DNA from: Heptranchias perlo
Taxonomy: Eukaryota
Assembly: GCF_035084215.1 (NCBI RefSeq)
Contig: NC_090325.1
Span: forward strand, 162,440,001 to 162,504,000
Direction of reading: 5' to 3'
DNA length: 64,000 bases
Part shown: positions 3,113-54,237 of the stretch, piece after piece
Numbering within the stretch: the stretch's first letter is position 1
Layout: each line of letters begins with the position of its first letter
Translations under genes and position numbers: made by a program
Notes under the pieces: generated by a model
The model's input: only the letters and a program-made list of their open reading frames with translations
Database searches by the model: none
Told to the model about the DNA's origin: nothing

Positions 3113-3997
3113 TTAGGAGAACCGTTCACATATCAGTGACTCCCTGGCCTCACGAGCAGCCAGGTGAGCCGCTGCTCTGCCCATGGGTAGCTCGTGCTCC
3201 TCCTCCTCCTGATCTTTCTTCTCCTCCGCTTCCTCCTCCTCATCCTCCTCAATGTGGGTGGCAGATGTGGATGGGGCCTCCTGAAGTGGCACCCCTCTCT
3301 GTTTTGCCATGTTGTGCAGGGCACCACACATGACTATAATGCATCCTACTCTGTCCGGTGCGTATTGAGGCGCTCCCCCAGATCGATCAAGGCACCTGAA
3401 GTGCATCTTGAGCAGCCCTAGAGCATGCTCAGTTGTAGACATGGTGGCAATGTAGCTGTCGTTATATCGACGTTGCTCGGTGATAGGGTTGCTCAGAGGT
3501 GTCATGAGCCACGTGTGCAGGGGGTACCCCTTGTCCCCATGGAGCCAGCCCTTAAGGATGTTTGGTGCGTGGAAGAGGGGCGGAATGTTGGATTCCTGGA
3601 GGATGAAGGAATCGTGGCAGCTGCCAGGGTATCTGGCGCACACATGAAAGAATCTTTTGCAGTGTTCACAAATGAGCGGAGTGTTGATGGAGTGATAGCC
3701 CTTCCTGTTGATAAACAGTCCTGGCTCGTGTGGAGGTACTTGGATTGCTAAATGGGTGCAATCGATTACACCCTGCATCCTTGGGAAGCCAGCCACATGC
3801 GTGGAATCCCACTGCCCTCTCCGTCTGGCTTGGTTGTCCATGGGGAAGTTGACGTAGTGCGAGGCCCTGCGAAACAAGCCGTCGGTGACCTGCCTTATGC
3901 ACTTGTGTGCAGACGACTGAGAGACCCCGGCGATGTCCCCGGTGGCACCCTGGGATGATCCGGAGACGAAGAGGTTGAGGGCAGTGGTGACTTTGAC
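3113..3997 (-). pseudogene. Harbinger (HARBI1-like, DDE_Tnp_4) transposase, 5' part lost
   Basis: Motifs GVIDCTH, NRKGYHSIN, PGSCHDSFIL, GDKGYP, EHALGLLKMHFRCLD and an acidic tail; frameshift near 3880; cut by a LINE at ~3998. Confidence 0.9.
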
Positions 3998-5150
3998 AGA
4001 TGGTACACAATGCAGCCACAGTGCGCCGGTGGTGAAGGGAGTGAATGTTTAGGGTGGTGGATGGGGTGCCAATCAAGCGGGCTGCTTTGTCTTGGATGGT
4101 GTCAAGCTTCTTGAGTGTTGTTGGAGCTGCACCCATCCAGGCAAGTGGAGAGTATTCCATCACATTCCTGATTTATGCCTTGTAGATGGTGGAAAGGCTT
4201 TGGGGAGTCAGGAGGTGAGTCACTTGCCACAGAATACCCAGCCTCTGGCCTGCTCTTGTAGCCACAGTATTTCTATGGCTGGTCCAGTTAAGTTTCTGGT
4301 CCATGGTGACCCTCAGGATGTTGATGGTGGGGGATTCGGCGATGGTAATGCCGTTGAATGTCAAGGGGAGGTCGTTAGACTCTCTCTTGTTGGAGATAGT
4401 CATTGCCTGGCATTTGTCTGGCGCAAATGTTACTTGCCACTTATGAGCCCAAGCCTGGATGTTGCCCAGGTCTTGCTGCATGTGGGCACGGACTGCTTCA
4501 TTATCTGAGGGGTTGAGAATGGAACTGAACACTGTGCTATCATCAGCGAACATCCCCATTTCTGACCTTATGATGGAGGGAAGGTCATTGATGAAGCAGC
4601 TGAAGATGGTTGGGCCTAGGACACTGCCCTGAGGAACTCCTGCAGCAATGTCCTGGGGCTGAGATGATTGGCCTCCAACAACCACTACCATCTTCCTTTG
4701 TGCTAGTTATGAATCCAGCCACTGGAGCGTTTTCCCCCTGATTCCCATTGACTTCAATTTTACTAGGGCTCCTTGGTGCCACACTCGGTCAAATGCTGCG
4801 TTGATGTCAAGGGCAGTTACTCTCACCTCACCTCTGGAATTCAGCTCTTTTGTCCATGTTTAGACCAAGGCTGTAATGAGGTCTGGAGCTGAGTGGTCCT
4901 GGCAGAACCCAAACTGAGCATCGGTAAGCAGGTTATTGGTGAGTAAGTGCCACTTGATAACACTGTCGACGACACCTTCCATCACTTTGCTGATGATTGA
5001 GAGTAGACTAATGGGGCGGTAATTGGCCAGATTGGTTTCGTCCTGCTTTTTGTGGACAGGACAGACCTGGGCAATTTTCCTCATTGTCGGGTAGATGCCA
5101 GTGTTGTAGCTGCACTGGAACAGCTTGGCTAGAGGCGCAGCTAGTTCTGG
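3998..5150 (-). mobile_element. CR1-group LINE family B (Zenon-like), RT fragment
   Basis: NYRPISLLSIISKVME, GVPQGSVLGPTIFSCFINDLP, MFADD, LDTIQDKAARLIG; near-identical to copies at 12.3, 20.4 and 54.2 kb. Clade assignment is by motif resemblance only. Confidence 0.85.
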
Positions 5151-7248: not shown

Positions 7249-10200
7249 TCCATTTATAAAGCCCAGGATCCCGTATGCTTTTTTAACCGCTTTCTCAACC
7301 CGTCCTGCCATCTTCAAAGATTTGTGCACATATACCCCCAGGTCTCTCTGTTCCTGCACCCCCTTTAGAATTATACCATTTAGTTTATATTGCCTCTCCT
7401 CATTCTTCCTACCAAAATGTATCACTTGGCACTTCTCTGCTTTAAATTTCATCTGCCATGTGTCCGCCTATTCCACCAGCCTGTCTATATCCTCTTGAAA
7501 TCTATTACTATCCTCCTCACTGTTTACTACACTTCCGAAAAACAACCGTTCACCATTACTCTCTCCTGTCACATAGCTAATTTTGCATCCATGCTGCCAC
7601 TACTCCTTTAATTCCATGGGCTTCAATTTTGCTGACAAGTCTATTATGTGGCACTTTATTAAAAGCCTTTTGAAAGTCCATATACACAACATCAACTCAT
7701 CAAAAAACTCAATCAAGTTAGTTAAACACGATTTGCCATTAACAAATCCGTGCTGGCTTTCCTTTATTAATCCACACTTGTCCAAGTGATTATTAATTTT
7801 GTTCCAGATTATCGTTTCCAAAAGCTTCCCCACCTCCGAGGTTAAACTGACTGGCCTGTCAAAGACAGATGCAAAGTATTAATTTAGTACCTCAGCCATG
7901 CCCCCTGCCTTCATGTGTAGATCTCCTTTTTGGTCCCTTATCGGCCCCACCCCTTCTCTTACTACCCGTTGACTATTTATATGACTATAGAAGACATTTG
8001 GATTCCCATTTATGTTGGCTGCCAGTATATTCCCATACTCTCTCTTTGCCCTTCTTCTTTTTTCACTTCTCTTCTGTACTTTCTATATTCAGCCTGGTCC
8101 TCATTTGTATTATCAACCTGACATCTGTCATACGTCCCCTTTTTCTGTTTCATCCTACTCTCCATCTCTTTCATAATCCAGGGACCTCTGGCTTTGCTTG
8201 CCCTACCTTTCCCTCTCGTGGGAATGTACCTACACTGTACCCAAACCATCTCCTCTTTAAAGGCCACCCATTGTTCGATTACAGTTTTGCCTGCCAATCT
8301 TAGATTCCAATTTACCCGGGCCAGATCCGTTCTCAACCCACTGAAATTGGCCCTCCTCCAATTAAATAATTTGGCTCTAGATTGCTCCTTGTCCTTTTCC
8401 ATAACTAATCTAAACCTTATGAAACTATGATCATTGTTCCCTAAATGTTCCCCCACTGACACTTGCTCCACTCGACCCACCTCATCCCCCAGAACCAGAT
8501 CCAGCAATGCCTCCTTCCTCGTTGGGCCGGAAACGTACTGGTCAAGAAAGTTCTCCTGAATATACTTCAGAAATTCCTCCCCCTCTTTGCCCTTTACACT
8601 ATTACTATCCAAGTCTATATTAGAATAGTTGAAGTCCCCCATTACCACTACTCTATAGTTCTTGCACATCTCTGTAATTTCCCTGCAAATTTTCTCCTCT
8701 ATATCCTTCCCACTAGTTGGTGGCCTGTAGAATACACCCAGTAGTGTAATGGCACCTCTATTGTTTCTTAACTCTAACCAAATAGATTCTGTCCTTGACC
8801 CTTGAAGGACATCCTCTCTATCCAGCACTGCAATATTCCCCTTAATCAATACTACCACCCCCCCACCCACCTTTTTTTCCTTCCCTATCTTTCCTGATCA
8901 CCTTGTATCCAGGAATAATTAGGACCCAATCCTGCCCTTTTTTAAGCCAGGTCTCCGTTATCGCCACTACATCATATTCACGGGTGGCTATTTGTGCCTG
9001 CAGCTCACCAACCTTATTTACCACACTTTCTGCATATACACACGTGCACTCTAAATCTTATACCTTCTCGTATTGTCACTCAGTCTGATCCCACCTAATA
9101 CTGTACTATTTCTTACTCTAGTGCTATCTGTTTTTCCCAATCCTTTGTGCACCTTGTTTCTGCCTTCTAATGCTACATCCTGGTGCCCAGCCCCCTGCCA
9201 AATTAGTTTAACCCCCCCCCCCCACATCACTAGTGAACCTCCCCACAACTACATTGATCCCAGCTCTGTTGAGGTGAAACCCATCCATCTTAAACAGGTC
9301 CCTCCTACCCCAGAACTGGTCCCAATGCCCCAAGAGTTTGAAGCTCTCCCTCCTGCATCACGTCTCTAGCCACGCATTAACCTGCCTTATCTTCCTATTT
9401 CTATACTCACTAGCGAGTGGCATTAACCACTACCTTTGATGTCCTGCTTTTTGGCTTCCTCCCTAGCTCCTGAAACTCTGGCCGCAGGACCTCATCCCTT
9501 TCCTTTCCTATATCGTTGGTACCAATATGGACCACAACTTCATAGCATCATAGAACCATAGAAAGTTACGACACAGAAGGAGGCCATTCGGCCCATCGTG
9601 TCCGTGCCGGCCGAAAAAGAACTATCCAGCTGAATCCCACTTTCCAGCATTTGGTCCGTAGCCCTTTAGGTTCCAGCACTTCAAGTGCACATCCAAGTAC
9701 TTTTTAAATGAGTTGAAGGTTTCTGCCTCTACCAACCTTTCAGGTAGTGAGTTCCAGACCCCCACCACCCTCTTGGTGAAAACATTTCTCGTCAGCTCCC
9801 CTCTAATCCTTCTACCAATTACTTTAAATCTATGCCCCCTGGTCACTGACCCCTCTGCTAAGGGAAATAGGTCCTCCCTATCCACTCTAAAGACCCATCG
9901 TAATTTTATATACCGCAATTAAATCTCCCCTAAGCCTATCCAATCTTTTCTCATAGCTAAAATTCTCCAGCCCTGGCAACATCGTCGTAAATTTCCTCTG
10001 TACTTTCTCTAGTGCAATCACATCTTTCCTGTAATGTGGTGACCAGAACTGTACGCAGTACTCTAGCTGTGGCCGAACCAATGTTTTATACAGTTCTAGC
10101 ATAACCTCCCTGCTCTTATATTCTATGCTTTGGCTAATAAAGGAAAGTACCCCAATGCCTTTTTAACCTCCTTATCTACTTGTCCTGCTACCTTCAGGGA

Positions 10201-14561: not shown

Positions 14562-15456
14562 CAGTGAACAGTGAGGAGGATAGTGATAGACTTCACGAAG
14601 ATATAGACAGGCTGGTTGCATCGACGGACAGGTGGCAGATGAAATTTAACACACAGAAATGCGAGGGGATGCATTTCGGTAGGAAGGACGAGGAGAGGCA
14701 ATATAAACTAGAGTGCACAACTCTAAAAGGGGTACAGGAACACAGAGATCTGGGGGTATATGTACTCAAATCATTGAAGGTGGCAGGGCAGGTTGAGAAA
14801 GCGGTTAAAAAAGCATACAGGGTCCTGGGCTTTATAAATAGAGGCAGAGAGTACAAAAGCAAGGAAGTCACGATGAACCTTTATAAAACACTGGTTCGGC
14901 CACAACTGGAGTATTGTGTCCATTTCTGGGCACCGTACTTCAGGAAAGATGTGAAGGCCTTGGATAGAGTGCAGTAGAGATTTACTAGAATGATTCCAGG
15001 GATGAGGGACTTTAGTTACGTGGATAGACTGGAGAAGCTGGGGTTGTTCTCCTTGGAACAGAGATGTTTGCGAGGAGATTTGATAGAGGTATTCAAAATC
15101 ATGAAGGGTGTAGACAGAGTAGATAGAGAGAAATTGTTCCCATTGGCGGAAGGGTCAAATACCAGAGGGCATAAATTTAAGGTGATTGGCAAAAGAACCA
15201 AAGGTGACATGAGGAAAAACTTTTGTACACAACGAGTGGTTAGGATCTGGAATGCACTGCCTGAGGGGGTGGTAGAGGCAGATTCAATCCTGGCCTGCAA
15301 AAGGGAACTGGAGAAGTACTTGAAAGGAAAAAAATTGCAGGGCTACTGGAATAGGGTGGGGGAGTGGGACTAGCTGGATTGCTCTTGCATAGAGCCGGCA
15401 CGGACTCGATAGGTCGAATGGCCTCCTTCCGTGCTGTATCCTTTCTATGATTCTAA
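14562..15456 (+). mobile_element. 5'-truncated CR1
   Basis: ORFs 14564-14977 and 14990-15373 (RT C-terminus); TTCTATGATTCTA tail. Confidence 0.9.
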
Positions 15457-15514
15457 GCACTGTCAAACTCTTCTGGCTGTTCTCCTTTCCCCGCAGAATG
15501 TTCTGCACCCTCTC

Positions 15515-16210
15515 CGTCATGGTTGAATAGCTGCCATTGTGTGTGTGAGATATGAGTTGCAGGAGTGATGTTTGTAATCGTGCTGAGAGTGTGAGGATGA
15601 AATAAAGAATATTGTGAAGTGCTGTGCTGATTGGAGCAGAGTGCATGGTGCTGGGAGAGCGGATTGGTGTGAGTGCTGCAATTAATGAGGCTGTGAGTGG
15701 TGCAGCTGTGACGAGAAGGTATTTGAACAGTGCTCTTACCTTGACAACTCTAGTCAAATCATTGAACTTCTTGTGGCACTGCATCAACGATCTGGGAGCA
15801 ATGCTCCTGGCATTGACCTTATTGGTGATCTCCTCCCACTGCCTCCTCATCATCAGCCTGGAGGGATTCCTGCCCCCTGGGGGATAAAGGATGTCCCTCC
15901 TCCTCTCCACTTCCTGCACCAAGACCTCCATTGCAGCATCAGAGAACCTTGGTGCCCACTCCCTCCCAACTTCAGCCATTTCAGTCTTTCACACAGCAGA
16001 TCCTCACAGCATTTCTCATAGCCAGAATCCATCTCCCCATTAAATAGTGTGGCGTCCTCTCAATATCGCCCCCCCCCCCCACATCCGACAGGCACGCACC
16101 CACTGCATGGGTAGGCCTGGCTCCATGCACAGATCATTAAGATTTGCAGGCCACACGGATTTCAAGCTAACAACTAGTGCAGGTTATTGCCCCCACATCA
16201 TGCATTTCTA
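15515..16210 (-). mobile_element. Harbinger family C fragment with Myb/SANT exon (15979-15740)
   Basis: MAEVGREWAPRFSDAAMEVLVQEVERRRDILYP...QWEEITNKVN...QCHKKFNDLTRVVK followed by GTAAGA donor. Confidence 0.75.
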
Positions 16211-21283: not shown

Positions 21284-21420
21284 CTCAGAACCTTTGCTCA
21301 CTGTACTGTCTCCAACTCTTCTCTGCAGATTTGTAAACGAGCCTTTGTTTTTCACTGCCATTTCTAAATCTCATGTGAATAGCAAAAGACTGAAAAATGC
21401 CGCCCAAGTCCCTCAACACG

Positions 21421-24400
21421 ATACACACTGCAACCACCTCCCTCACCACTAAACACAGTGCAACTACCCCCCTCACCACTAAACACACTGCAACCACCTC
21501 CCTCACCACCAGAATCACTGCAACCACCTCCCTCACCACTAAACACAGTGCAACCACCCCCCTCACCACCAGAATCACTGCAACCACCTCCCTCACCACC
21601 AGAATCACTGCAACCACCTTCCTCACCACTAAACACAGTGCAACTACCCCCATCACCACTAAACACAGTGCAACCACCTCCCTCACCACCAGAATTACTG
21701 CAACCACCTCCCTCACCACTAAACACACTGCAACCACCTCCCTCACCACTAAACACAGTGCAACCACCTCCCTCACCACTAAACACAGTGCAACCACCCC
21801 CCTCACCACTAAACACACTGCAACCACCTCCCTCACCACCAGAATCACTGCAACCACCTCCCTCACCACTAAACACACTGCAACCACCTCCCTCACGACT
21901 AAACACACTGCAACCACCTCCCTCACCACTAAACACACTGCAACCACCTCTCTCAACACCAGAATCACTGCAACCACCTCCCTCACCACTAAACACACTG
22001 CAACCACCTCCCTCACGACTAAACACACTGCAACCACCTCCCTCAACACCAGAATCACTGCAACCACCTCCCTCACCACTAAACACACTGCAACCACCTC
22101 CCTCACGACTAAACACACTGCAACCACCTCCCTCAACACCAGAATCACTGCAACCACCTCCCTCACCACTAAACACACTGCAACCACCTCCCTCACGACG
22201 AAACACACTGCAACCACCTCCCTCAACACCAGAATCACTGCAACCACCTCCCTCACCACTAAACACACTGCAACCACCTCCCTCACCAGTAAACACACTG
22301 CAACCACCTCCCTCACCACCAGAATCACTGCAACCACCTCCCTCACCACCAGAATCACTGCCACCACCTCCCTCACAACCAAACACACTGCAACCACCTC
22401 CCTCACCACCAGAATCACTGCAACCACCTCCCTCACCACCAAACACACTGCAACCACCTCCCTCACCACCAGACTCACTGCAACCACCTCCCTCACCACC
22501 AGAATCACTGCGACCACCTCCCTCACCACCAGAATCACTGCAACCACCTCCCTCACCACCAAACACACTGCAACCACCTCCCTCACCACCAAACACACTG
22601 CAACCACCTCCCTCACCACCAGACTCACTGCAACCACCTCCCTCACCACCAGAATCACTGCGACCACCTCCCTCACCACCAGACTCACTGCAACCACCTC
22701 CCTCACCACCAGACACACTGCAACCACCTCCCTCACCACTAAACACACTGCAACCACCTCCCTCACCATTAAACACACTGCAACCACCTCCCTCACCACC
22801 AGACTCACTGCGACCACCTCCCTCACCACCAGAATCACTGCAACCACCTCCCTCACAACCAAACACACTGCAACCACCTCCCTCACCACCAGAATCACTG
22901 CAACCACCTCCCTCACCACCAGACTCACTGCAACCACCTCCCTCACCACCAAACACACTGCAACCACCTCCCTCACCACTAAACACACTGCAACCACCTC
23001 CCTCACCATTAAACACACTGCAACCACCTCCCTCACCACTAAACACACTGCAACCACCTCCCTCACCACTAAACTCACTGCAACCACCTCCCTCACCACC
23101 AGAATCACTGCAACCACCTCCCTCACCATTAAACACACTGCAACCACCTCCCTCACCACGAAACAAACTGCAACCACCTCCCTCACCACCAGAATCACTG
23201 CGACCACCTCCCTCACCACCAGAATCACTGCAACCACCTCCCTCACCACCAGAATCACTGCGACCACCTCCCTCACCACCAGACTCACTGCAACCACCTC
23301 CCTCACCACCAGACTCACTGCAACCACCTCCCTCACCACCAGACTCACTGCAACCACCTCCCTCACCACCAGTCTCACTGCAACCACCTCCCTCACCACC
23401 AAACACACTGCAACCACCTCCCTCACCACCAGACTCACTGCAACCACCTCCCTCACAACCAAACACACTGCAACCACCTCCCTCACCACCAGAATCACTG
23501 CCACCACCTCCCTCACCACCAGACTCACTGCAACCACCTCCCTCACAACCAAACACACTGCAACCACCTCCCTCACCACCAGACTCACTGCAACCACCTC
23601 CCTCACCACTAAACACACTGCAACCACCTCCCTCACCACCAAACACACTGCAACCACCTCCCTCACCACCAGACTCACTGCAACCACCTCTCTCACCACC
23701 AAACACACTGCAACCACCTCCCTCACCACCAGACTCACTGCAACCACCTCCCTCACCACCAAACACACTGCAACCACCTCCCTCACCACCAGACTCACTG
23801 CAACCACCTCTCTCACCACCAAACACACTGCAACCACCTCCCTCACCACCAAACACACTGCAACCACCTCCCTCACCACCAGACTCACTGCAACCACCTC
23901 CCTCACCACCAAACACACTGCAACCACCTCCCTCACCACCAGAATCACTGCCACCACCTCCCTCACCACCAGACTCACTGCAACCACCTCCCTTACAACC
24001 AAACACACTGCAACCACCTCCCTCACCACCAGAATCACTGCCACCACCTCCCTCACCACCAGACTCACTGCAACCACCTCCCTCACCACCAGACTCACTG
24101 CAACCACCTCCCTCACCACCAGACTCACTGCAACCACCTCCCTCACCACCAGACTCACTGCAACCACCTCCCTCACAACCAAACACACTGCAACCACCTC
24201 CCTCACCACCAGAATCACTGCAACCACCTCCCTCACCACTAAACACACTGCAACCACCTCCCTCACCACCAGAATCACTGCAACCACCTCCCTCACAACT
24301 AAACAAACTGCAACCACCTCCCTCAACACAAAACACACTGCAACCACCTCCCTCACCACCAGAATCACTGCCACCACCTCCCTCACCACCAGAATCACTG

Positions 24401-26382
24401 CAACCACCTCCCTCACCACCAGACACACTGCAACCACCTCCCTCAACACCAGAATCACTGCGACCACCTCCCTCACCACCAGAATCACTGCTACCACCTC
24501 CCTCACCACCAGACTCACTGCAACCACCTCCCTCACCACCAGACACACTGCAACCACCTCCCTCACCACTAAACACACTGCAACCACCTCCCTCACCACC
24601 AGAATCACTGCGACCACCTCCCTCACCACCAAACACACTGCAACCACCTCCCTCACCACCAGACTCACTGCAACCACCTCCCTCACCACCAGACTCACTG
24701 CAACCACCTCCCTCACAACTAAACAAACTGCAACCACCTCCCTCAACACAAAACACAGTGCAACCACCTCCCTCACCACCAGACTCACTGCAACCACCTC
24801 CCTCACCACCAGAATCACTGCAACCACCTCCCTCACCACTAAACAAACTGCAACCACCTCCCTCAACACAAAACACACTGCAACCACCTCCCTCACCACT
24901 AAACACACTGCAACCACCTCCCTCACCACCAGACTCACTGCAACCACCTCCCTCACCACCAGAATCACTGCAACCACCTCCCTCACCACTAAACACAGTG
25001 CAACCACCCCCCCTCACCACTAAACACACTGCAACCACCTCCCTCACCACTAAACAAACTGCAACCACCCCCCTCACCACTAAACACACTGCAACCACCT
25101 CCCTCACCACCAGAATCACTGCAACCACCTCCCTCACCACTAAACACATTGCAACCACCTCCCTCACCACCAGAATCACTGCAACCACCCCCCCTCACCA
25201 CTAAACACACTGCAACCACCCCCCTCACCACTAAACACACTGCAACCACCTCCCTCACCACCAGACTCACTGCAACCACCTCCCTCACCACCAGAATCAC
25301 TGCAACCACCTCCCTCACAACTAAACAAACTGCAACCACCTCCCTCACCACCAGAATCACTGCAACCACCTCCCTCACCACCAGACTCACTGCTACCACC
25401 TCCCTCACCACCAGAATCACTGCGACCACCTCCCTCACCACCAGACACACTGCAACCACCTCCCTCACCACCAGACTCACTGCTACCACCTCCCTCACCA
25501 CCAGAATCACTGCAACCACCTCCCTCACCACCAGAATCACTGCAACCACCTCCCTCACCACCAGAATCACTGCAACCACCTCCCTCACCACCAAACACAC
25601 TGCAACCACCTCCCTCACCACCAGACTCACTGCAACCACCTCCCTCACCACTAAACACACTGCAACCACCTCCCTCACCACTAAACACACTGCAACCACC
25701 TCCCTCACCACCAGACTCACTGCAACCACCTCCCTCACCACCAGACTCACTGCAACCACCTCCCTCACCACCACTCACTGCAACCACCTCCCTCACCACC
25801 AGACTCACTGCAACCACCTCCCTCACCACCAAACACACTGCAACCACCTCCCTCACCACCAGACTCACTGCAACCACCTCCCTCACCACCAGACTCACTG
25901 CAACCACCTCCCTCACCACCAAACACACTGCAACCACCTCCCTCACCACCAGACTCACTGCAACCACCTCCCTCACCACCAGAATCACTGCGACCACCTC
26001 CCTCACCACCAGAATCACTGCCACCACCTCCCTCACCACTAAACACACTGCAACCACCTCCCTCACCACAAAACACACTGCAACCACCTCCCTCACCACT
26101 AAACACACTGCAACCACCTCCCTCACCACCAGAATCACTGCAACCACCTCCCTCACCACTAAACACACTGCAACCACCTCCCTCACCACCAGAATCACTG
26201 CGACCACCTCCCTCACCACGAAACACACTGCAACCACCTCCCTCACCACTAAACACACTGCAACCACCTCCCTCACCACTAAACACACTGCAACCACCTC
26301 CCTCACCACCAGACTCACTGCAACCACCCCCCTCACCACTAAACACACTGCAACCACCTCCCTCACCACTAAACACACTGCA
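21421..26382. repeat. 30-bp minisatellite, ~165 units (CACTGCAACCACCTCCCTCACCAC-[TAAACA|CAAACA|CAGAAT|CAGACT])
   Basis: Direct 30-bp periodicity; three small indels (~25010, ~25190, ~25773). Confidence 0.97.
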
Positions 26383-50158: not shown

Positions 50159-51109
50159 ATGTCAGGACAGCCCAGCCCCGTGTTATGCTCTTCCTGCTCT
50201 ATGTGGGAAATCAGGGACCCTTCCGGTGTCCCTGACGACCATGTGTGCGGGAAATGTATCCAGCTGCAGCTACTGACAAACCGCATTGCGGCACTGGAGC
50301 TGCGGATAGATTCATTAAGGAGCATTCGCGATGCTGAGAACGTCGTGGATAGCACGTTTAGTGAGATGGTCACACCGCAGGTAAAGGTTGTACAGGCAGG
50401 AAGTAATTGGGTGACCACCAGGCAGAGTAAGAGGAGCAGGCAGGCAGTGCAGGGGTCCCCTGTGGCCGTCCCCCTCTCAAACAAATATACCGCTTTGGAT
50501 ATTGTTGAGGGGGATGACTTATCAGGGGAAAGCAGCAGCAGCCAACTTCCTGGCACCAGGGGTAGCTCTGCTGCACAGGCTGGGAGGAAAAAGAGTGGAA
50601 GAGCTATAGTGGTAGGGGATTCTATCGTAAGGGGAACAGACAGGCGTTTCTGTGGCCGTAAACGTGACTCCAGGATGGTTTGTTGCCTCCCTGGTGCCAG
50701 GGTCATGGATGTCACTGACTGGCTACAGGGCATTCTCAAGGGGGAGGGTGAGCAGGCAGAGGTCGTGATCCACATTGGGACCAACGACATAGGTAGGAAG
50801 GGAGATGAGGTCCTGCATCAAGAATTTAGGGAGCTAGGTAGCAGATTAAAGAGCAGGACCTCAAAGGTTGTAATCTCTGGATTACTCCCAGTGCCACGGG
50901 CTAGTGAGTATAGAAATAGGAGGATAGAACAGATGAATGCGTGGCTAAAGAGTTGGTGCAGGAGGGAGGGTTTCAGTTTCCTGGATCACTGGGCCTGCTT
51001 CTGGGGAAGGTGGGACTTGTACAAGTCGGACGGGTTGCACCTGATCCAGAGCGGGACAAATATCCTTGCGGGGAGGTTTGCTAACACTGTTGGGGGGGGT
51101 TTAAACTAA
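50159..51109 (+). CDS. CR1 ORF1p: zinc-finger/coiled coil plus SGNH esterase
   Basis: CSSC..CGKC, leucine-zipper-like segment, GDSIVRG, HIGTND, DGLHL; 316 aa uninterrupted. Confidence 0.92.
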   Translation: MSGQPSPVLCSSCSMWEIRDPSGVPDDHVCGKCIQLQLLTNRIAALELRIDSLRSIRDAENVVDSTFSEMVTPQVKVVQAGSNWVTTRQSKRSRQAVQGSPVAVPLSNKYTALDIVEGDDLSGESSSSQLPGTRGSSAAQAGRKKSGRAIVVGDSIVRGTDRRFCGRKRDSRMVCCLPGARVMDVTDWLQGILKGEGEQAEVVIHIGTNDIGRKGDEVLHQEFRELGSRLKSRTSKVVISGLLPVPRASEYRNRRIEQMNAWLKSWCRREGFSFLDHWACFWGRWDLYKSDGLHLIQSGTNILAGRFANTVGGGLN

Positions 51110-54021
51110 CTTGGCAGGGGGATGGGATACAGAGTGGAGCTACAATAGGGGGTGATGTGCAGCCAAATATAGAGAAAAAAACAAGTCAGCTTGGAAGACA
51201 GGGCAAATATGTGAGGGCAAGGCTGGATGGCATCTATTTTAATGCAAGGAGTCTTGCAAATAAGGTGGATGAACTGAAGGTGTTGATAAACACATGGGAG
51301 TATGACATTGTTGCTGTCACAGAGACATGGTTGAGGGAGGGACAAGACTGGCAGCTCAATATTCCGGGGTACAGAATCTTCAGGCGAGACAGAGGGGGAG
51401 GTATAAGAGGAGGGGGGGTCGCAATATTAATTAAAGAATCAATTACTGCCATAAGGAGGGATGATATATTAGCAGGTTCCTCGAATGAGGCCATATGGGT
51501 GGAGCTTAAAAACAAAAAGGGGGCAAGCACTTTGATGGGAGTGTACTATAGGCCCCCAAACAGTCAGGGGGAGATAGAGGAACAGATATGTAGGCAAATC
51601 TCAGAAAATTGTGCAAATAATAGGGTAATAATAGTGGGGGATTTCAACTTCCCCAATATTAACTGGGATACTCAGAGTGTAAAAGGCTTAGAGGGTACAA
51701 AATTCTTAACATGCATCCAGGAGAGCTTTTTGAGCCAGCATGTAGAAAGTCCTACAAGAGAGGGGGCGGTACTGGACCTAATTCTAGGGAATGTGGCCGG
51801 CCAAGTGGAAGAAGTGCTAGTAGGTGAGCACTTTGGTGATAGTGACCATAATTCGGTGAGATTTAAGGTGGTCATGGAAAAGGATAGGGAGGGGCCGGAA
51901 ATAAAGGTTCTAAATTGGGGGAAGGCCGATTTTAATAGGATAAGGCAGGATCTGGCCAAAATGGACTGGGATCAGCTGCTTGTAGGAAAATCCGCATCGG
52001 AGCAATGGGAGTCTTTCAGAAGGGAGATTGAGACCATACAATGGCAACATGTTCCCGTAAAGGTCAAGGGTGGTTCCAAGAACTCCAGGGAACCTTGGAT
52101 GTCAGGGGATATACGAGAATGGATTAGGAAAAAAAGGAGGGCTTTTGGCAGATACAAAAGGCTAAAGACGGAGGAAGCCCTAGAGGAGTACAAAAAGTGC
52201 AGGGGGATACTTAAAAAGGAAATTAGGAGATCAAGGAGGGGCCATGAAATAACACTGGCGAGCAAAATAAAGGAAAATCCTAAGATGTTTTATAAGTATA
52301 TTAAGGGTAAGAGGATGACTAGGGAAAAAATAGGGCCCATTAGGGACAAAAATGGCAATCTGTGTGTGGAGCCGGCAGATGTAGGAGGGGTTCTAAATGA
52401 ATTTTTTACATCTGTTTTCACTATGGAGAAGGACGACGTAGACATAGAAATACGGCAGGGGGACTGTGATATACTCGAACATATTAACATCGAGCGGGAG
52501 GAGGTATTGGCGGTTTTAGCAGGCCTAAAAATGGATAAATCCCCAGGCCCGGACGAAATGTATCCCAGGCTACTGTGTGAGGCAAAGGAGGAGATTGCAG
52601 GGGCTCTGACACATATATTCAGAACCTCTCTGGCCACAGGGGATGTGCCAGAGGACTGGAGAACCGCTAATGTAGTACCATTATTCAAGAAGGGGAGTAG
52701 GGAAAAACCGGGGAACTACAGGCCAGTGAGCCTAACATCAGTGGTAGGAAAATTATTGGAAAAAATTCTGAAGGACAAAATTAGTCTCCACTTGGAGAAG
52801 CAAGGATTAATCAGGGATCGTCAACATGGCTTTGTCAAGGGAAGATCATGTCTGACTAATTTGATTGAATTTTTTGAGGGGGTGACTAGGCGTGTGGATG
52901 AGGGTAACGCAGTGGATGTGGTATACATGGATTTCAGTAAGGCCTTCGATAAAGTCCCCCACAGGAGACTGGTCAAGAAGCTACGAGCCCATGGAATCCA
53001 AGGTGCCTTGGCACTTTGGATACAAAACTGGCTTAGTGGCAGAAGGCAGAGGGTGATGGTCGAAGGTTGTTTTTGTGACTGGAAGCCTGTGGCCAGTGGG
53101 GTACCACAGGGATCGGTGCTGGGTCCCTTGCTGTTTGTGGTCTACATTAATGACTTGGATATGAATGTAAAAGGTATGATCAGTAAGTTCGCTGATGATA
53201 CAAAAATTGGTAGGGTGGTAAATAGCGAGGAGGATAGCCTCAGTCTGCAGGACGATATAGATGGGTTGGTCAGATGGGCGGAACAGTGGCAAATGGAATT
53301 TAACCCGGAAAAGTGCGAGGTGATGCACTTTGGAGGGACTAACAAGGCAAGGGAATACACAATGAATGGGAGGACCCTAGGCAAGACAGAGGGTCAGAGG
53401 GATCTTGGTGTGCAAGTTCACAGATCCCTGAAGGCGGCGGAACAGGTAGATAAGGTGGTAAAGAAGGCATATGGGATACTTGCCTTTATTAGCCGAGGCA
53501 TAGAATATAAGAGCAAGGAGGTTATGATGGAGCTGTATAAAACACTGGTTAGGACACAGCTGGAGTACTGTGTGCAGTTCTGGTCGCCACACTACAGGAA
53601 GGATGTGATCGCTTTGGAGAGGGTGCAGAGGAGATTCACCAGGATGTTACCAGGGCTGGAGCGCTTCAGCTATGAAGAGAGACTGGGAAGATTGGGTTTG
53701 TTTTCCTTGGAGCAGAGGAGGCTGAGGGGGGACATGATTGAGGTGTACAAAATTATGAGGGGCACAGATAGGATGGATACTAAGGAGCTTTTTCCCTTCG
53801 TTGAGGGTTCTATAACAAGGGGACATAGATTCAAGGTAAAAGGCGGGAGGTTTAGAGGGGATTTGAGAAAGAACTTTTTCACCCAGAGGGTGGTTGGAGT
53901 CTGGAACTCACTGCCTGAAAGGGTTGTGGAGGCAGGAACCCTCACAACATTCAAGAAGCATTTGGATGAGCACTTGAAATGCCATAGCATACAAGGCTAC
54001 GGACCAAATGCTGGAATATGA
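51100..54021 (+). CDS. CR1 ORF2p: APE endonuclease plus reverse transcriptase (no in-frame ATG before the EN catalytic residues)
   Basis: YFNARS, VTETW, YYRPP, GDFN, SDHN, NYRPVSLTS, PQGSVLGP, FADD; frame open from 51085; ends GNAGI-type NAGI* two codons short of the usual WD*. Confidence 0.92.
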   Translation, partial: FKLTWQGDGIQSGATIGGDVQPNIEKKTSQLGRQGKYVRARLDGIYFNARSLANKVDELKVLINTWEYDIVAVTETWLREGQDWQLNIPGYRIFRRDRGGGIRGGGVAILIKESITAIRRDDILAGSSNEAIWVELKNKKGASTLMGVYYRPPNSQGEIEEQICRQISENCANNRVIIVGDFNFPNINWDTQSVKGLEGTKFLTCIQESFLSQHVESPTREGAVLDLILGNVAGQVEEVLVGEHFGDSDHNSVRFKVVMEKDREGPEIKVLNWGKADFNRIRQDLAKMDWDQLLVGKSASEQWESFRREIETIQWQHVPVKVKGGSKNSREPWMSGDIREWIRKKRRAFGRYKRLKTEEALEEYKKCRGILKKEIRRSRRGHEITLASKIKENPKMFYKYIKGKRMTREKIGPIRDKNGNLCVEPADVGGVLNEFFTSVFTMEKDDVDIEIRQGDCDILEHINIEREEVLAVLAGLKMDKSPGPDEMYPRLLCEAKEEIAGALTHIFRTSLATGDVPEDWRTANVVPLFKKGSREKPGNYRPVSLTSVVGKLLEKILKDKISLHLEKQGLIRDRQHGFVKGRSCLTNLIEFFEGVTRRVDEGNAVDVVYMDFSKAFDKVPHRRLVKKLRAHGIQGALALWIQNWLSGRRQRVMVEGCFCDWKPVASGVPQGSVLGPLLFVVYINDLDMNVKGMISKFADDTKIGRVVNSEEDSLSLQDDIDGLVRWAEQWQMEFNPEKCEVMHFGGTNKAREYTMNGRTLGKTEGQRDLGVQVHRSLKAAEQVDKVVKKAYGILAFISRGIEYKSKEVMMELYKTLVRTQLEYCVQFWSPHYRKDVIALERVQRRFTRMLPGLERFSYEERLGRLGLFSLEQRRLRGDMIEVYKIMRGTDRMDTKELFPFVEGSITRGHRFKVKGGRFRGDLRKNFFTQRVVGVWNSLPERVVEAGTLTTFKKHLDEHLKCHSIQGYGPNAGI

Positions 54022-54237
54022 GATTAGAGTAGACCGGGCTTGATGGCCGGCGCGGACACGATGGGCCGAAGGGCCTCTATCCGTGCTGTATAACTCTATG
54101 ATTCTATGACTCTATAAAAGCCAATAGAGGACTGCCCCTTTAAATAGAGCTCCTCCACCTGACAGCCTGTGATGCGAATGTGCAGTCCGCCCACTGCGCA
54201 GCTTTCAGATGGCAATCCCGGAAGCCAGGTTAAGTAT

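What the first reader, a model, noticed from the sequence alone, without database searches (positions are those of the whole stretch)
51082..51126. Candidate -1 programmed ribosomal frameshift (U_UUA_AAC) fusing CR1 ORF1 and ORF2
Seen: ORF1 ends GGT TTA AAC TAA. TTTAAAC (51100-51106) is an X_XXY_YYZ heptamer in the correct phase, the same heptamer used by coronaviruses. ORF2 is in the -1 frame, opens at 51085 (25-nt overlap including the stop) and has no ATG until well inside the endonuclease, after the NARS and TETW catalytic motifs. A G-rich TGGCAGGGGG(A/T)TGGG block begins 5 nt after the heptamer, the usual stimulator spacing. Identical geometry recurs in a divergent CR1 subfamily at 26.5 kb. 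Inference: these LINEs may make ORF2p as an ORF1-ORF2 (gag-pol-like) fusion by frameshifting, unlike the termination-reinitiation described for L1. Overlapping CR1 ORFs are known, but I am not aware of a functional demonstration of this mechanism.
Basis: partly seen in the sequence, partly recalled or inferred. Interest (0 to 1): 0.8.

Follow-up and report, generated by a model that had tools for sequence, protein, structure and literature searches.

The report
Frameshift signal in vertebrate CR1 LINEs
A common jumping gene (CR1 LINE) ends its first gene with the same seven-letter slippery sequence in shark and bird-type copies, and its second gene continues one base back, often with no usable start codon, so it is likely made by ribosomes slipping one base as in retroviruses and coronaviruses; this is untested in the lab.

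Summary
Confirmed. In an intact CR1 LINE of a 3.25-Gb cartilaginous-fish genome, ORF1 (SGNH esterase) ends T TTA AAC TAA. ORF2 (endonuclease-RT) is in the -1 frame; its first in-frame ATG is at residue 151. Genome-wide, 14,131 of 15,060 sites of the form Leu/Phe-Asn-stop plus G motif carry the exact heptamer. It is invariant in 10 of 10 lineages (6 shark, 4 bird-type; shark-bird ORF1 tails 21-29% identical), while the codon before Leu changes amino acid but keeps its T and other synonymous sites vary. Distant ORF1 relatives end Q-G-N or S-K-N, which fits other slippery heptamers (DNA not seen). Best reading: -1 ribosomal frameshifting making an ORF1-ORF2 fusion (about 0.8, untested). No conserved hairpin was predicted; a linear GGGGGA.GG motif sits at +11. 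Main rival: termination-reinitiation (4 of 10 lineages have an AUG beside the stop). Nine literature searches found no report for CR1, but the older CR1 papers were not readable. This scan noted the same site before in another genome (e1-8041403).

The parts
50159..51109 (+). CR1 ORF1, 316 aa, SGNH/GDSL esterase domain, ends G-L-N-stop
   Evidence: (PF13472, E 1e-14)
51082..51084 (+). Last -1-frame stop (TAA) upstream; a shift must happen after it
51100..51106 (+). Slippery heptamer T TTA AAC in ORF1 phase
51107..51109 (+). ORF1 stop directly 3' of the heptamer (TAA here; TAG or TGA in other copies)
51117..51126 (+). Position-fixed G-rich motif GGGGGA.GGG at +11 to +20; candidate stimulator, role unknown
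51085..54021 (+). ORF2 in the -1 frame, 978 codons stop to stop: basic linker, APE endonuclease (YFNARS at 51235, TETW at 51319), reverse transcriptase (FADD at 53188); first in-frame ATG at 51535
54050..54115 (+). 3' UTR stem-loop and terminal CTCTATG-type repeats of the element
50466..50475 (+). CCGTCCCCCT in ORF1, the best in-element complement of the G motif in this copy; weak lead only
26515..26541 (+). Second CR1 subfamily (5'-truncated, ORF2 with an internal stop at 27457-59): TTTAAAC-TAA plus G motif
9186..9212 (-). Third, degraded CR1 junction: GTTAAAC-TAA followed by TTTGGCAGGGGGCTGGG

Best explanation
This is likely a programmed -1 ribosomal frameshift site, conserved in esterase-type CR1 LINEs, that would make the endonuclease-RT as an ORF1-ORF2 fusion. 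Shown: geometry, phase, conservation, open -1 linker, no usable AUG in most shark copies. Inferred: most ribosomes read UUA AAC and stop, giving 316-aa ORF1p; a minority slip back one base (U_UUA_AAC to UUU_AAA) and read on through a basic linker into ORF2, giving about 1,287 aa (316 + 971). Speculative: the pause comes from the stop codon next to the heptamer plus the linear G motif at +11 (protein binding or a small G-quadruplex), not from a classical pseudoknot.
For: (1) 14,131 of 15,060 genomic sites matching any Leu/Phe codon-Asn-stop-G motif have exact TTTAAAC, while the two bases after the stop vary freely. (2) 12 of 15 junctions in 800 kb of unselected genome carry it. (3) 7 of 8 bird-type metagenome contigs that reach the junction carry TTTAAAC with ORF2 in -1. 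(4) In 10 lineage representatives TTA, AAC and the preceding T are invariant (preceding codon GGT/GCT/TCT/TGT). Elsewhere in the last 110 ORF1 codons 1 of 12 fourfold columns, 0 of 4 Leu columns and 0 of 1 Asn column are invariant; TTA is 21 of 112 Leu codons. (5) The endonuclease motif is in the -1 frame in 122 of 140 copies where it was found; linkers are 110-392 nt, all 2 mod 3 in the lineage majorities, and open in 115 of 153 copies. (6) In 7 of 10 lineages a -1 stop lies only 4-7 codons upstream. (7) 89 of 111 shark copies with an open linker have no in-frame ATG before the first catalytic Asn. (8) Of 342 homologous proteins 180 end L-N, including ones named from Xenopus, Leptobrachium, Varanus and birds; the residue before L takes 13 identities, yet only 1 of 180 lacks a T-ending codon, against 51 and 72 of 180 at the next two positions. 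[quoted passage not shown] (10) No splice joint across the site in RNA-guess contigs.
Against: No translation data. No conserved 3' stem-loop (z from -2.65 to +1.4) and no pseudoknot program was available. A G-quadruplex is predicted in 5 of 6 shark and 0 of 4 bird-type representatives. One large shark subfamily has TAATG (stop-start overlap) and 3 of 4 bird-type representatives have an in-frame ATG at +6; all 4 have a Met somewhere in the linker. Representatives were picked for an open -1 linker, so their zero stops are circular. Copies within a subfamily are not independent, and the genome count is dominated by a few large subfamilies. Positions -6 and -7 are also poor in Q/K/E/M/W (3 and 5 of 180), so that test is not unique to -3. 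The Q-G-N and S-K-N heptamers are inferred from protein only. Two copies (L112, L115) read TTCAAAC.
Confidence: 0.8

Rival explanations
1. Termination-reinitiation: ribosomes stop at the ORF1 stop and restart just downstream, at an AUG where present (SART1-like UAAUG) or AUG-independently (as thought for L1), making a separate ORF2p. The heptamer would then be a cis-element for this or a relic.
For: TAATG in shark subfamily D; in-frame ATG at +6 in 3 of 4 bird-type representatives. The linker is open from the stop onward, which fits either model. SART1 UAAUG coupling is established (PMC2699510, passages); AUG-independent initiation is favoured for L1 (PMC5009743, passage).
Against: 6 of 10 lineages have no AUG beside the stop and the codon there varies (ACT, AAG, AAT, GAG, ATT). 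In this copy 12 out-of-frame ATGs precede the first in-frame one. Reinitiation does not explain a fixed X_XXY_YYZ pattern, a fixed -1 frame, or the L-N/G-N/K-N endings.
Confidence: 0.12
2. Protein constraint or shared ancestry only: L-N is needed at the ORF1p C-terminus, the codons are inherited, and ORF2 is made some other way (internal start or separate transcript).
For: L-N closes the last helix of the esterase and is near-invariant. Some shark subfamilies are close (fourfold-site identity up to 0.81).
Against: Shark-bird fourfold identity is 0.14-0.64 (6-16 sites per pair) yet TTA, AAC and the preceding T never change. More distant esterase ORF1 proteins end in other residues, and a host LINE in a MAG (L350) has an esterase ORF1, no heptamer and an in-frame ATG.
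Confidence: 0.04
3. Splicing or transcriptional slippage puts ORF2 in frame at the RNA level.
For: In this copy CTAAC..TGGCAG looks like a branch point and acceptor, and a G8 run lies just upstream.
Against: These features are not kept in other lineages, there is no pyrimidine tract, and contigs of three RNA-guess runs from one sample span the junction contiguously with no joint or indel listed there (contigs drop rare forms).
Confidence: 0.04

Closest known systems
Viral -1 programmed frameshift at U_UUA_AAC (IBV coronavirus 1a/1b; retroviral pro-pol sites recalled)
   Same: Identical heptamer in phase, downstream polymerase ORF in the -1 frame, structural or accessory ORF upstream (PMC5009743 passages).
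   Different: Host is a vertebrate LINE; stop directly after the heptamer; no predicted stem-loop at +5 to +9.
Protein-stimulated frameshifting of arteriviruses (PRRSV nsp2TF) and cardioviruses
   Same: A short linear motif at a fixed 11-14 nt spacing (CCCANCUCC 11 nt 3' of the site, PMC5009743 passage); here GGGGGA.GG starts at +11.
   Different: Motif is G-rich; no binding protein known or tested; resemblance is spacing only.
SART1 UAAUG termination-reinitiation and mammalian L1 ORF2 initiation
   Same: Bicistronic LINE RNA; one shark subfamily has TAATG.
   Different: Those give a separate ORF2p and need no slippery site; most lineages here lack the AUG.
CR1-clade LINEs with SGNH esterase ORF1p (ZfL2-1 and relatives)
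   Same: Esterase ORF1, APE-RT ORF2, 3' stem-loop and short tandem repeats (PMC3905857 passages).
   Different: The word frameshift does not occur in that paper's main text; a fusion protein is not part of the model described there.
Other LINEs suggested to frameshift (Paramecium +1; Drosophila HeT-A; Dictyostelium TRE5-A)
   Same: Recoding proposed within non-LTR elements (PMC5405496 passage; PMC5009743 passage).
   Different: Different direction or site. The TRE5-A -1 claim comes from earlier scan notes and recall; PMC3159450 has no 'frameshift'.

Membership tests
-1 programmed ribosomal frameshift site | X_XXY_YYZ heptamer in the phase of the upstream ORF | tested here: met
-1 programmed ribosomal frameshift site | Downstream ORF in -1 frame, open from the heptamer | tested here: met
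   122 of 140 in -1 frame; 115 of 153 open
-1 programmed ribosomal frameshift site | Conservation at nucleotide level beyond protein need | tested here: met
-1 programmed ribosomal frameshift site | 3' stimulatory stem-loop or pseudoknot 5-9 nt downstream | tested here: not met
   no conserved stem-loop; pseudoknots not computable; a linear motif is conserved instead
-1 programmed ribosomal frameshift site | Transframe product above background | not testable with these tools
   needs reporter, ribosome profiling or proteomics
Protein-stimulated frameshift (arterivirus type) | Linear motif at fixed 11-14 nt spacing | tested here: met
   G at +11, +12, +14, +15, +18, +19 in 10 of 10; Gly codons GGG in 18 of 19 motif glycines versus 77 of 240 downstream
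Protein-stimulated frameshift (arterivirus type) | Trans-acting protein binds the motif | not testable with these tools
   none
Long-distance frameshift element (BYDV type) | Specific, covarying pairing with the 3' end | tested here: not met
   3' terminal duplex ranks near the best 5% of windows but cognate pairs are no better than non-cognate and the segment is inside a local hairpin
UAAUG termination-reinitiation | AUG overlapping or beside the stop | tested here: inconclusive
   present in 4 of 10 lineages, absent in this copy
CR1-clade LINE | SGNH ORF1, APE + RT ORF2, 3' hairpin and tandem repeats, relatives named as vertebrate | tested here: met
   no RT tree was built, so the clade name rests on these features

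The most novel reading that the evidence does not exclude
Esterase-type CR1 LINEs across jawed vertebrates (and more distant animals, with swapped heptamers) express their reverse transcriptase as a gag-pol-like fusion through a -1 frameshift kept for over 400 million years, stimulated by a structure-free G-rich motif at +11 bound by a host or element protein, or folding into a natural G-quadruplex stimulator, of which PMC5009743 (2016) knew no natural case.
Probability: 0.3. Interest if true: 0.9.

Novelty: new variant of a known kind. Interest (0 to 1): 0.72.

Why it matters
CR1 is a dominant repeat of birds (11.8% of the chicken genome, PMC11835228 passage) and of this shark genome, and how its ORF2 is translated is open. 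A frameshift would set the ORF1:ORF2 ratio, tether the RT to the esterase and coiled-coil protein, and mean that annotations starting ORF2 at an ATG cut off the endonuclease. It gives a 60-nt testable cassette, a design rule for CR1 retrotransposition assays, and possibly a new class of frameshift stimulator.

Tried and rejected
Local hairpin as stimulator: not above shuffles. Pairing of the G motif with the 3' end (lead from e1-9772336): not specific; 14 of 23 elements had a scorable 3' end, one of them (L362) mis-anchored. Pairing with an ORF1 segment about 640 nt upstream: best partner in this copy (-21.2 kcal/mol), p<=0.05 in 6 of 12 lineages against synonymous-codon shuffles, but chosen after the fact, with related lineages and 4-5 segments out of frame; left as a weak lead. 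DNA for the Q-G-N relatives: nothing in viral contigs, plasmids (102) or GTDB (63: bacterial esterases and three host-like contigs); searching this genome with one of them gave best hits at 36-44% identity, mostly 316-aa frames, whose junctions I did not read. Longer annotated fusion proteins: none (weak search); P0038 and P0074 read into the F-K-L frame but may be mutated copies. Expression: no RNA holder on record. Atlas hits only said eukaryotic SGNH proteins. Papers not held: a PubMed id meant for a turtle CR1 paper, Kojima 2005, Alisch 2006, Wicker 2005, Kapitonov and Jurka 2003. No supplements were read.
Full report
What it is. The window lies in a 3.25-Gb genome whose ORF1 relatives are named from sharks, rays and chimaera. 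The finding is the ORF1/ORF2 junction of an apparently intact CR1-type LINE: ORF1 50159-51109 (316 aa, SGNH esterase) and ORF2 51085-54021 (APE endonuclease and RT).

Observation. ORF1 ends GGT TTA AAC TAA, which puts T TTA AAC in X_XXY_YYZ phase. ORF2 is in the -1 frame and opens 25 nt before the end of the stop. Its first ATG is at residue 151, after NARS and TETW, with 12 out-of-frame ATGs before it. The copy at 26.5 kb has the same geometry, and a degraded third copy lies at 9.2 kb on the minus strand.

Conservation in this genome. I located junctions with ORF1 queries lacking the last six residues, so the heptamer was not preselected. In 800 kb of unselected DNA 12 of 15 junctions carry TTTAAAC. 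Of 246 junctions gathered (these include 60 loci chosen for likeness to the two window copies), 153 had an open ORF1 tail and enough flank; the other 93 were dropped. 140 of 153 end TTTAAAC, and the endonuclease motif is in the -1 frame in 122 of the 140 where it was found. Genome-wide, a pattern allowing any Leu/Phe codon, any Asn codon, a stop and the G motif matches 15,060 sites; 14,131 have the exact heptamer. These counts are dominated by large subfamilies and are not independent events.

Conservation across lineages. Host contigs in metagenomes gave bird-type CR1 ('bird-type' rests on likeness to named bird proteins). Seven of the eight that reach the junction have TTTAAAC. In ten representatives (six shark, four bird-type) shark-bird ORF1 tails are 21-29% identical, yet TTA, AAC and the T before them are invariant while that codon encodes Gly, Ala, Ser or Cys. 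Elsewhere 1 of 12 fourfold columns and 0 of 4 Leu columns are invariant, and TTA is 21 of 112 Leu codons. Linkers from the stop to the first catalytic Asn run from 110 to 374 nt in these ten, all 2 mod 3; the two other frames hold 44 and 40 stops. The zero in the -1 frame is by selection, but 115 of 153 copies have an open linker.

Protein evidence. Homologues reaching the last helix end L-N in 54 of 65, 77 of 85 and 45 of 81 cases in the three searches, including proteins named from Xenopus, Leptobrachium, Varanus and many birds. The residue before L has 13 identities, including His, Asp, Asn, Tyr, Cys and Phe, but only 1 of 180 lacks a T-ending codon; hydrophobic positions -6 and -7 are similarly poor in those residues, so the test is supportive, not unique. 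Seven unnamed distant relatives end Q-G-N and one S-K-N, as G_GGA_AAC and A_AAA_AAC would give; I could not get their DNA. A more distant esterase LINE (L350) has no heptamer and an in-frame ATG, so the fold does not need L-N.

Stimulator. No conserved stem-loop: z-scores from -2.65 to +1.4 with unrelated folds. A linear motif is fixed relative to the heptamer: G at +11, +12, +14, +15, +18 and +19 in 10 of 10, A at +16 in 9 of 10. Its glycines use GGG in 18 of 19 cases against 77 of 240 further on, which points to an RNA-level constraint. ViennaRNA places a G-quadruplex there in 5 of 6 shark and 0 of 4 bird-type representatives. The spacing matches the protein-bound PRRSV motif 11 nt after its shift site (PMC5009743, passages), which is a resemblance only. 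Pairing with the 3' end was not specific; pairing with an ORF1 segment was mixed.

Mechanism. Most likely a minority of ribosomes slip back one base on U_UUA_AAC and make a fusion of about 1,287 aa; the rest stop and make ORF1p (inferred, 0.8). The main rival is termination-reinitiation: one large shark subfamily reads TAATG and three of four bird-type representatives have ATG at +6, and SART1 uses UAAUG (PMC2699510, passages). But 89 of 111 shark copies with open linkers lack any in-frame ATG before the catalytic Asn, and reinitiation does not explain the heptamer. Both routes could coexist. Contigs of runs guessed to be RNA cross the junction without a joint, which argues against splicing as the main form but does not show transcription.

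Prior knowledge. Nine full-text searches pairing CR1 or non-LTR terms with frameshift terms, plus one for PsCR1, found no report of a CR1 frameshift. I saw passages only of PMC11835228, PMC1965478, PMC5405496, PMC5009743 (first 300,000 of 449,034 characters held; 'CR1' 0 times there), PMC3905857, PMC5911963, PMC2699510, PMC4255032 and PMC3159450. The founding CR1 papers were not held; I recall that they describe closely spaced or overlapping ORFs and cannot exclude that one proposed a frameshift. Earlier notes of this scan report the same site in another genome and related heptamers in other LINEs; these are unchecked AI notes and are not counted as support.

Verdict. A real, deeply conserved recoding-type signal; a new variant of a known mechanism in a major vertebrate retrotransposon family, awaiting a simple reporter test.

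Noticed in passing
L080 (+9231 onward), cluster 4: The 374-nt ORF2 linker of this subfamily ends in a near copy of the linker of the 26.5-kb subfamily (KLWQGVGNLSRE...), suggesting an old recombination between subfamilies that kept the -1 frame open.
   Followed up: no
window 54050-54087, 29600-29638; L363, L365, L367: The 3' UTR stem-loop keeps its shape with different paired sequences across shark subfamilies.
   Followed up: partly
window 21400-26380 and 29670-30670: A long 30-nt tandem array (about 6 kb) is interrupted by the 5'-truncated CR1 copy 2.
   Followed up: no
P0008, P0199, P0072: Vertebrate CR1 ORF1 proteins are filed under Pseudomonas aeruginosa, Klebsiella pneumoniae and a flatworm parasite, likely host contamination.
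   Followed up: no
L350: A host-derived LINE with esterase ORF1 and overlapping -1 ORF2 with an in-frame ATG sits in a Sedimenticola MAG contig, likely contamination.
   Followed up: partly
window 3113-4048 (-) and 15284-15988 (-): ORFs that look like a Harbinger-type transposase and a Myb/SANT-like partner (by eye and recall).
   Followed up: no
L112, L115: Two related copies read T TCA AAC TAA; not known whether this is a subfamily trait or a shared mutation.
   Followed up: no
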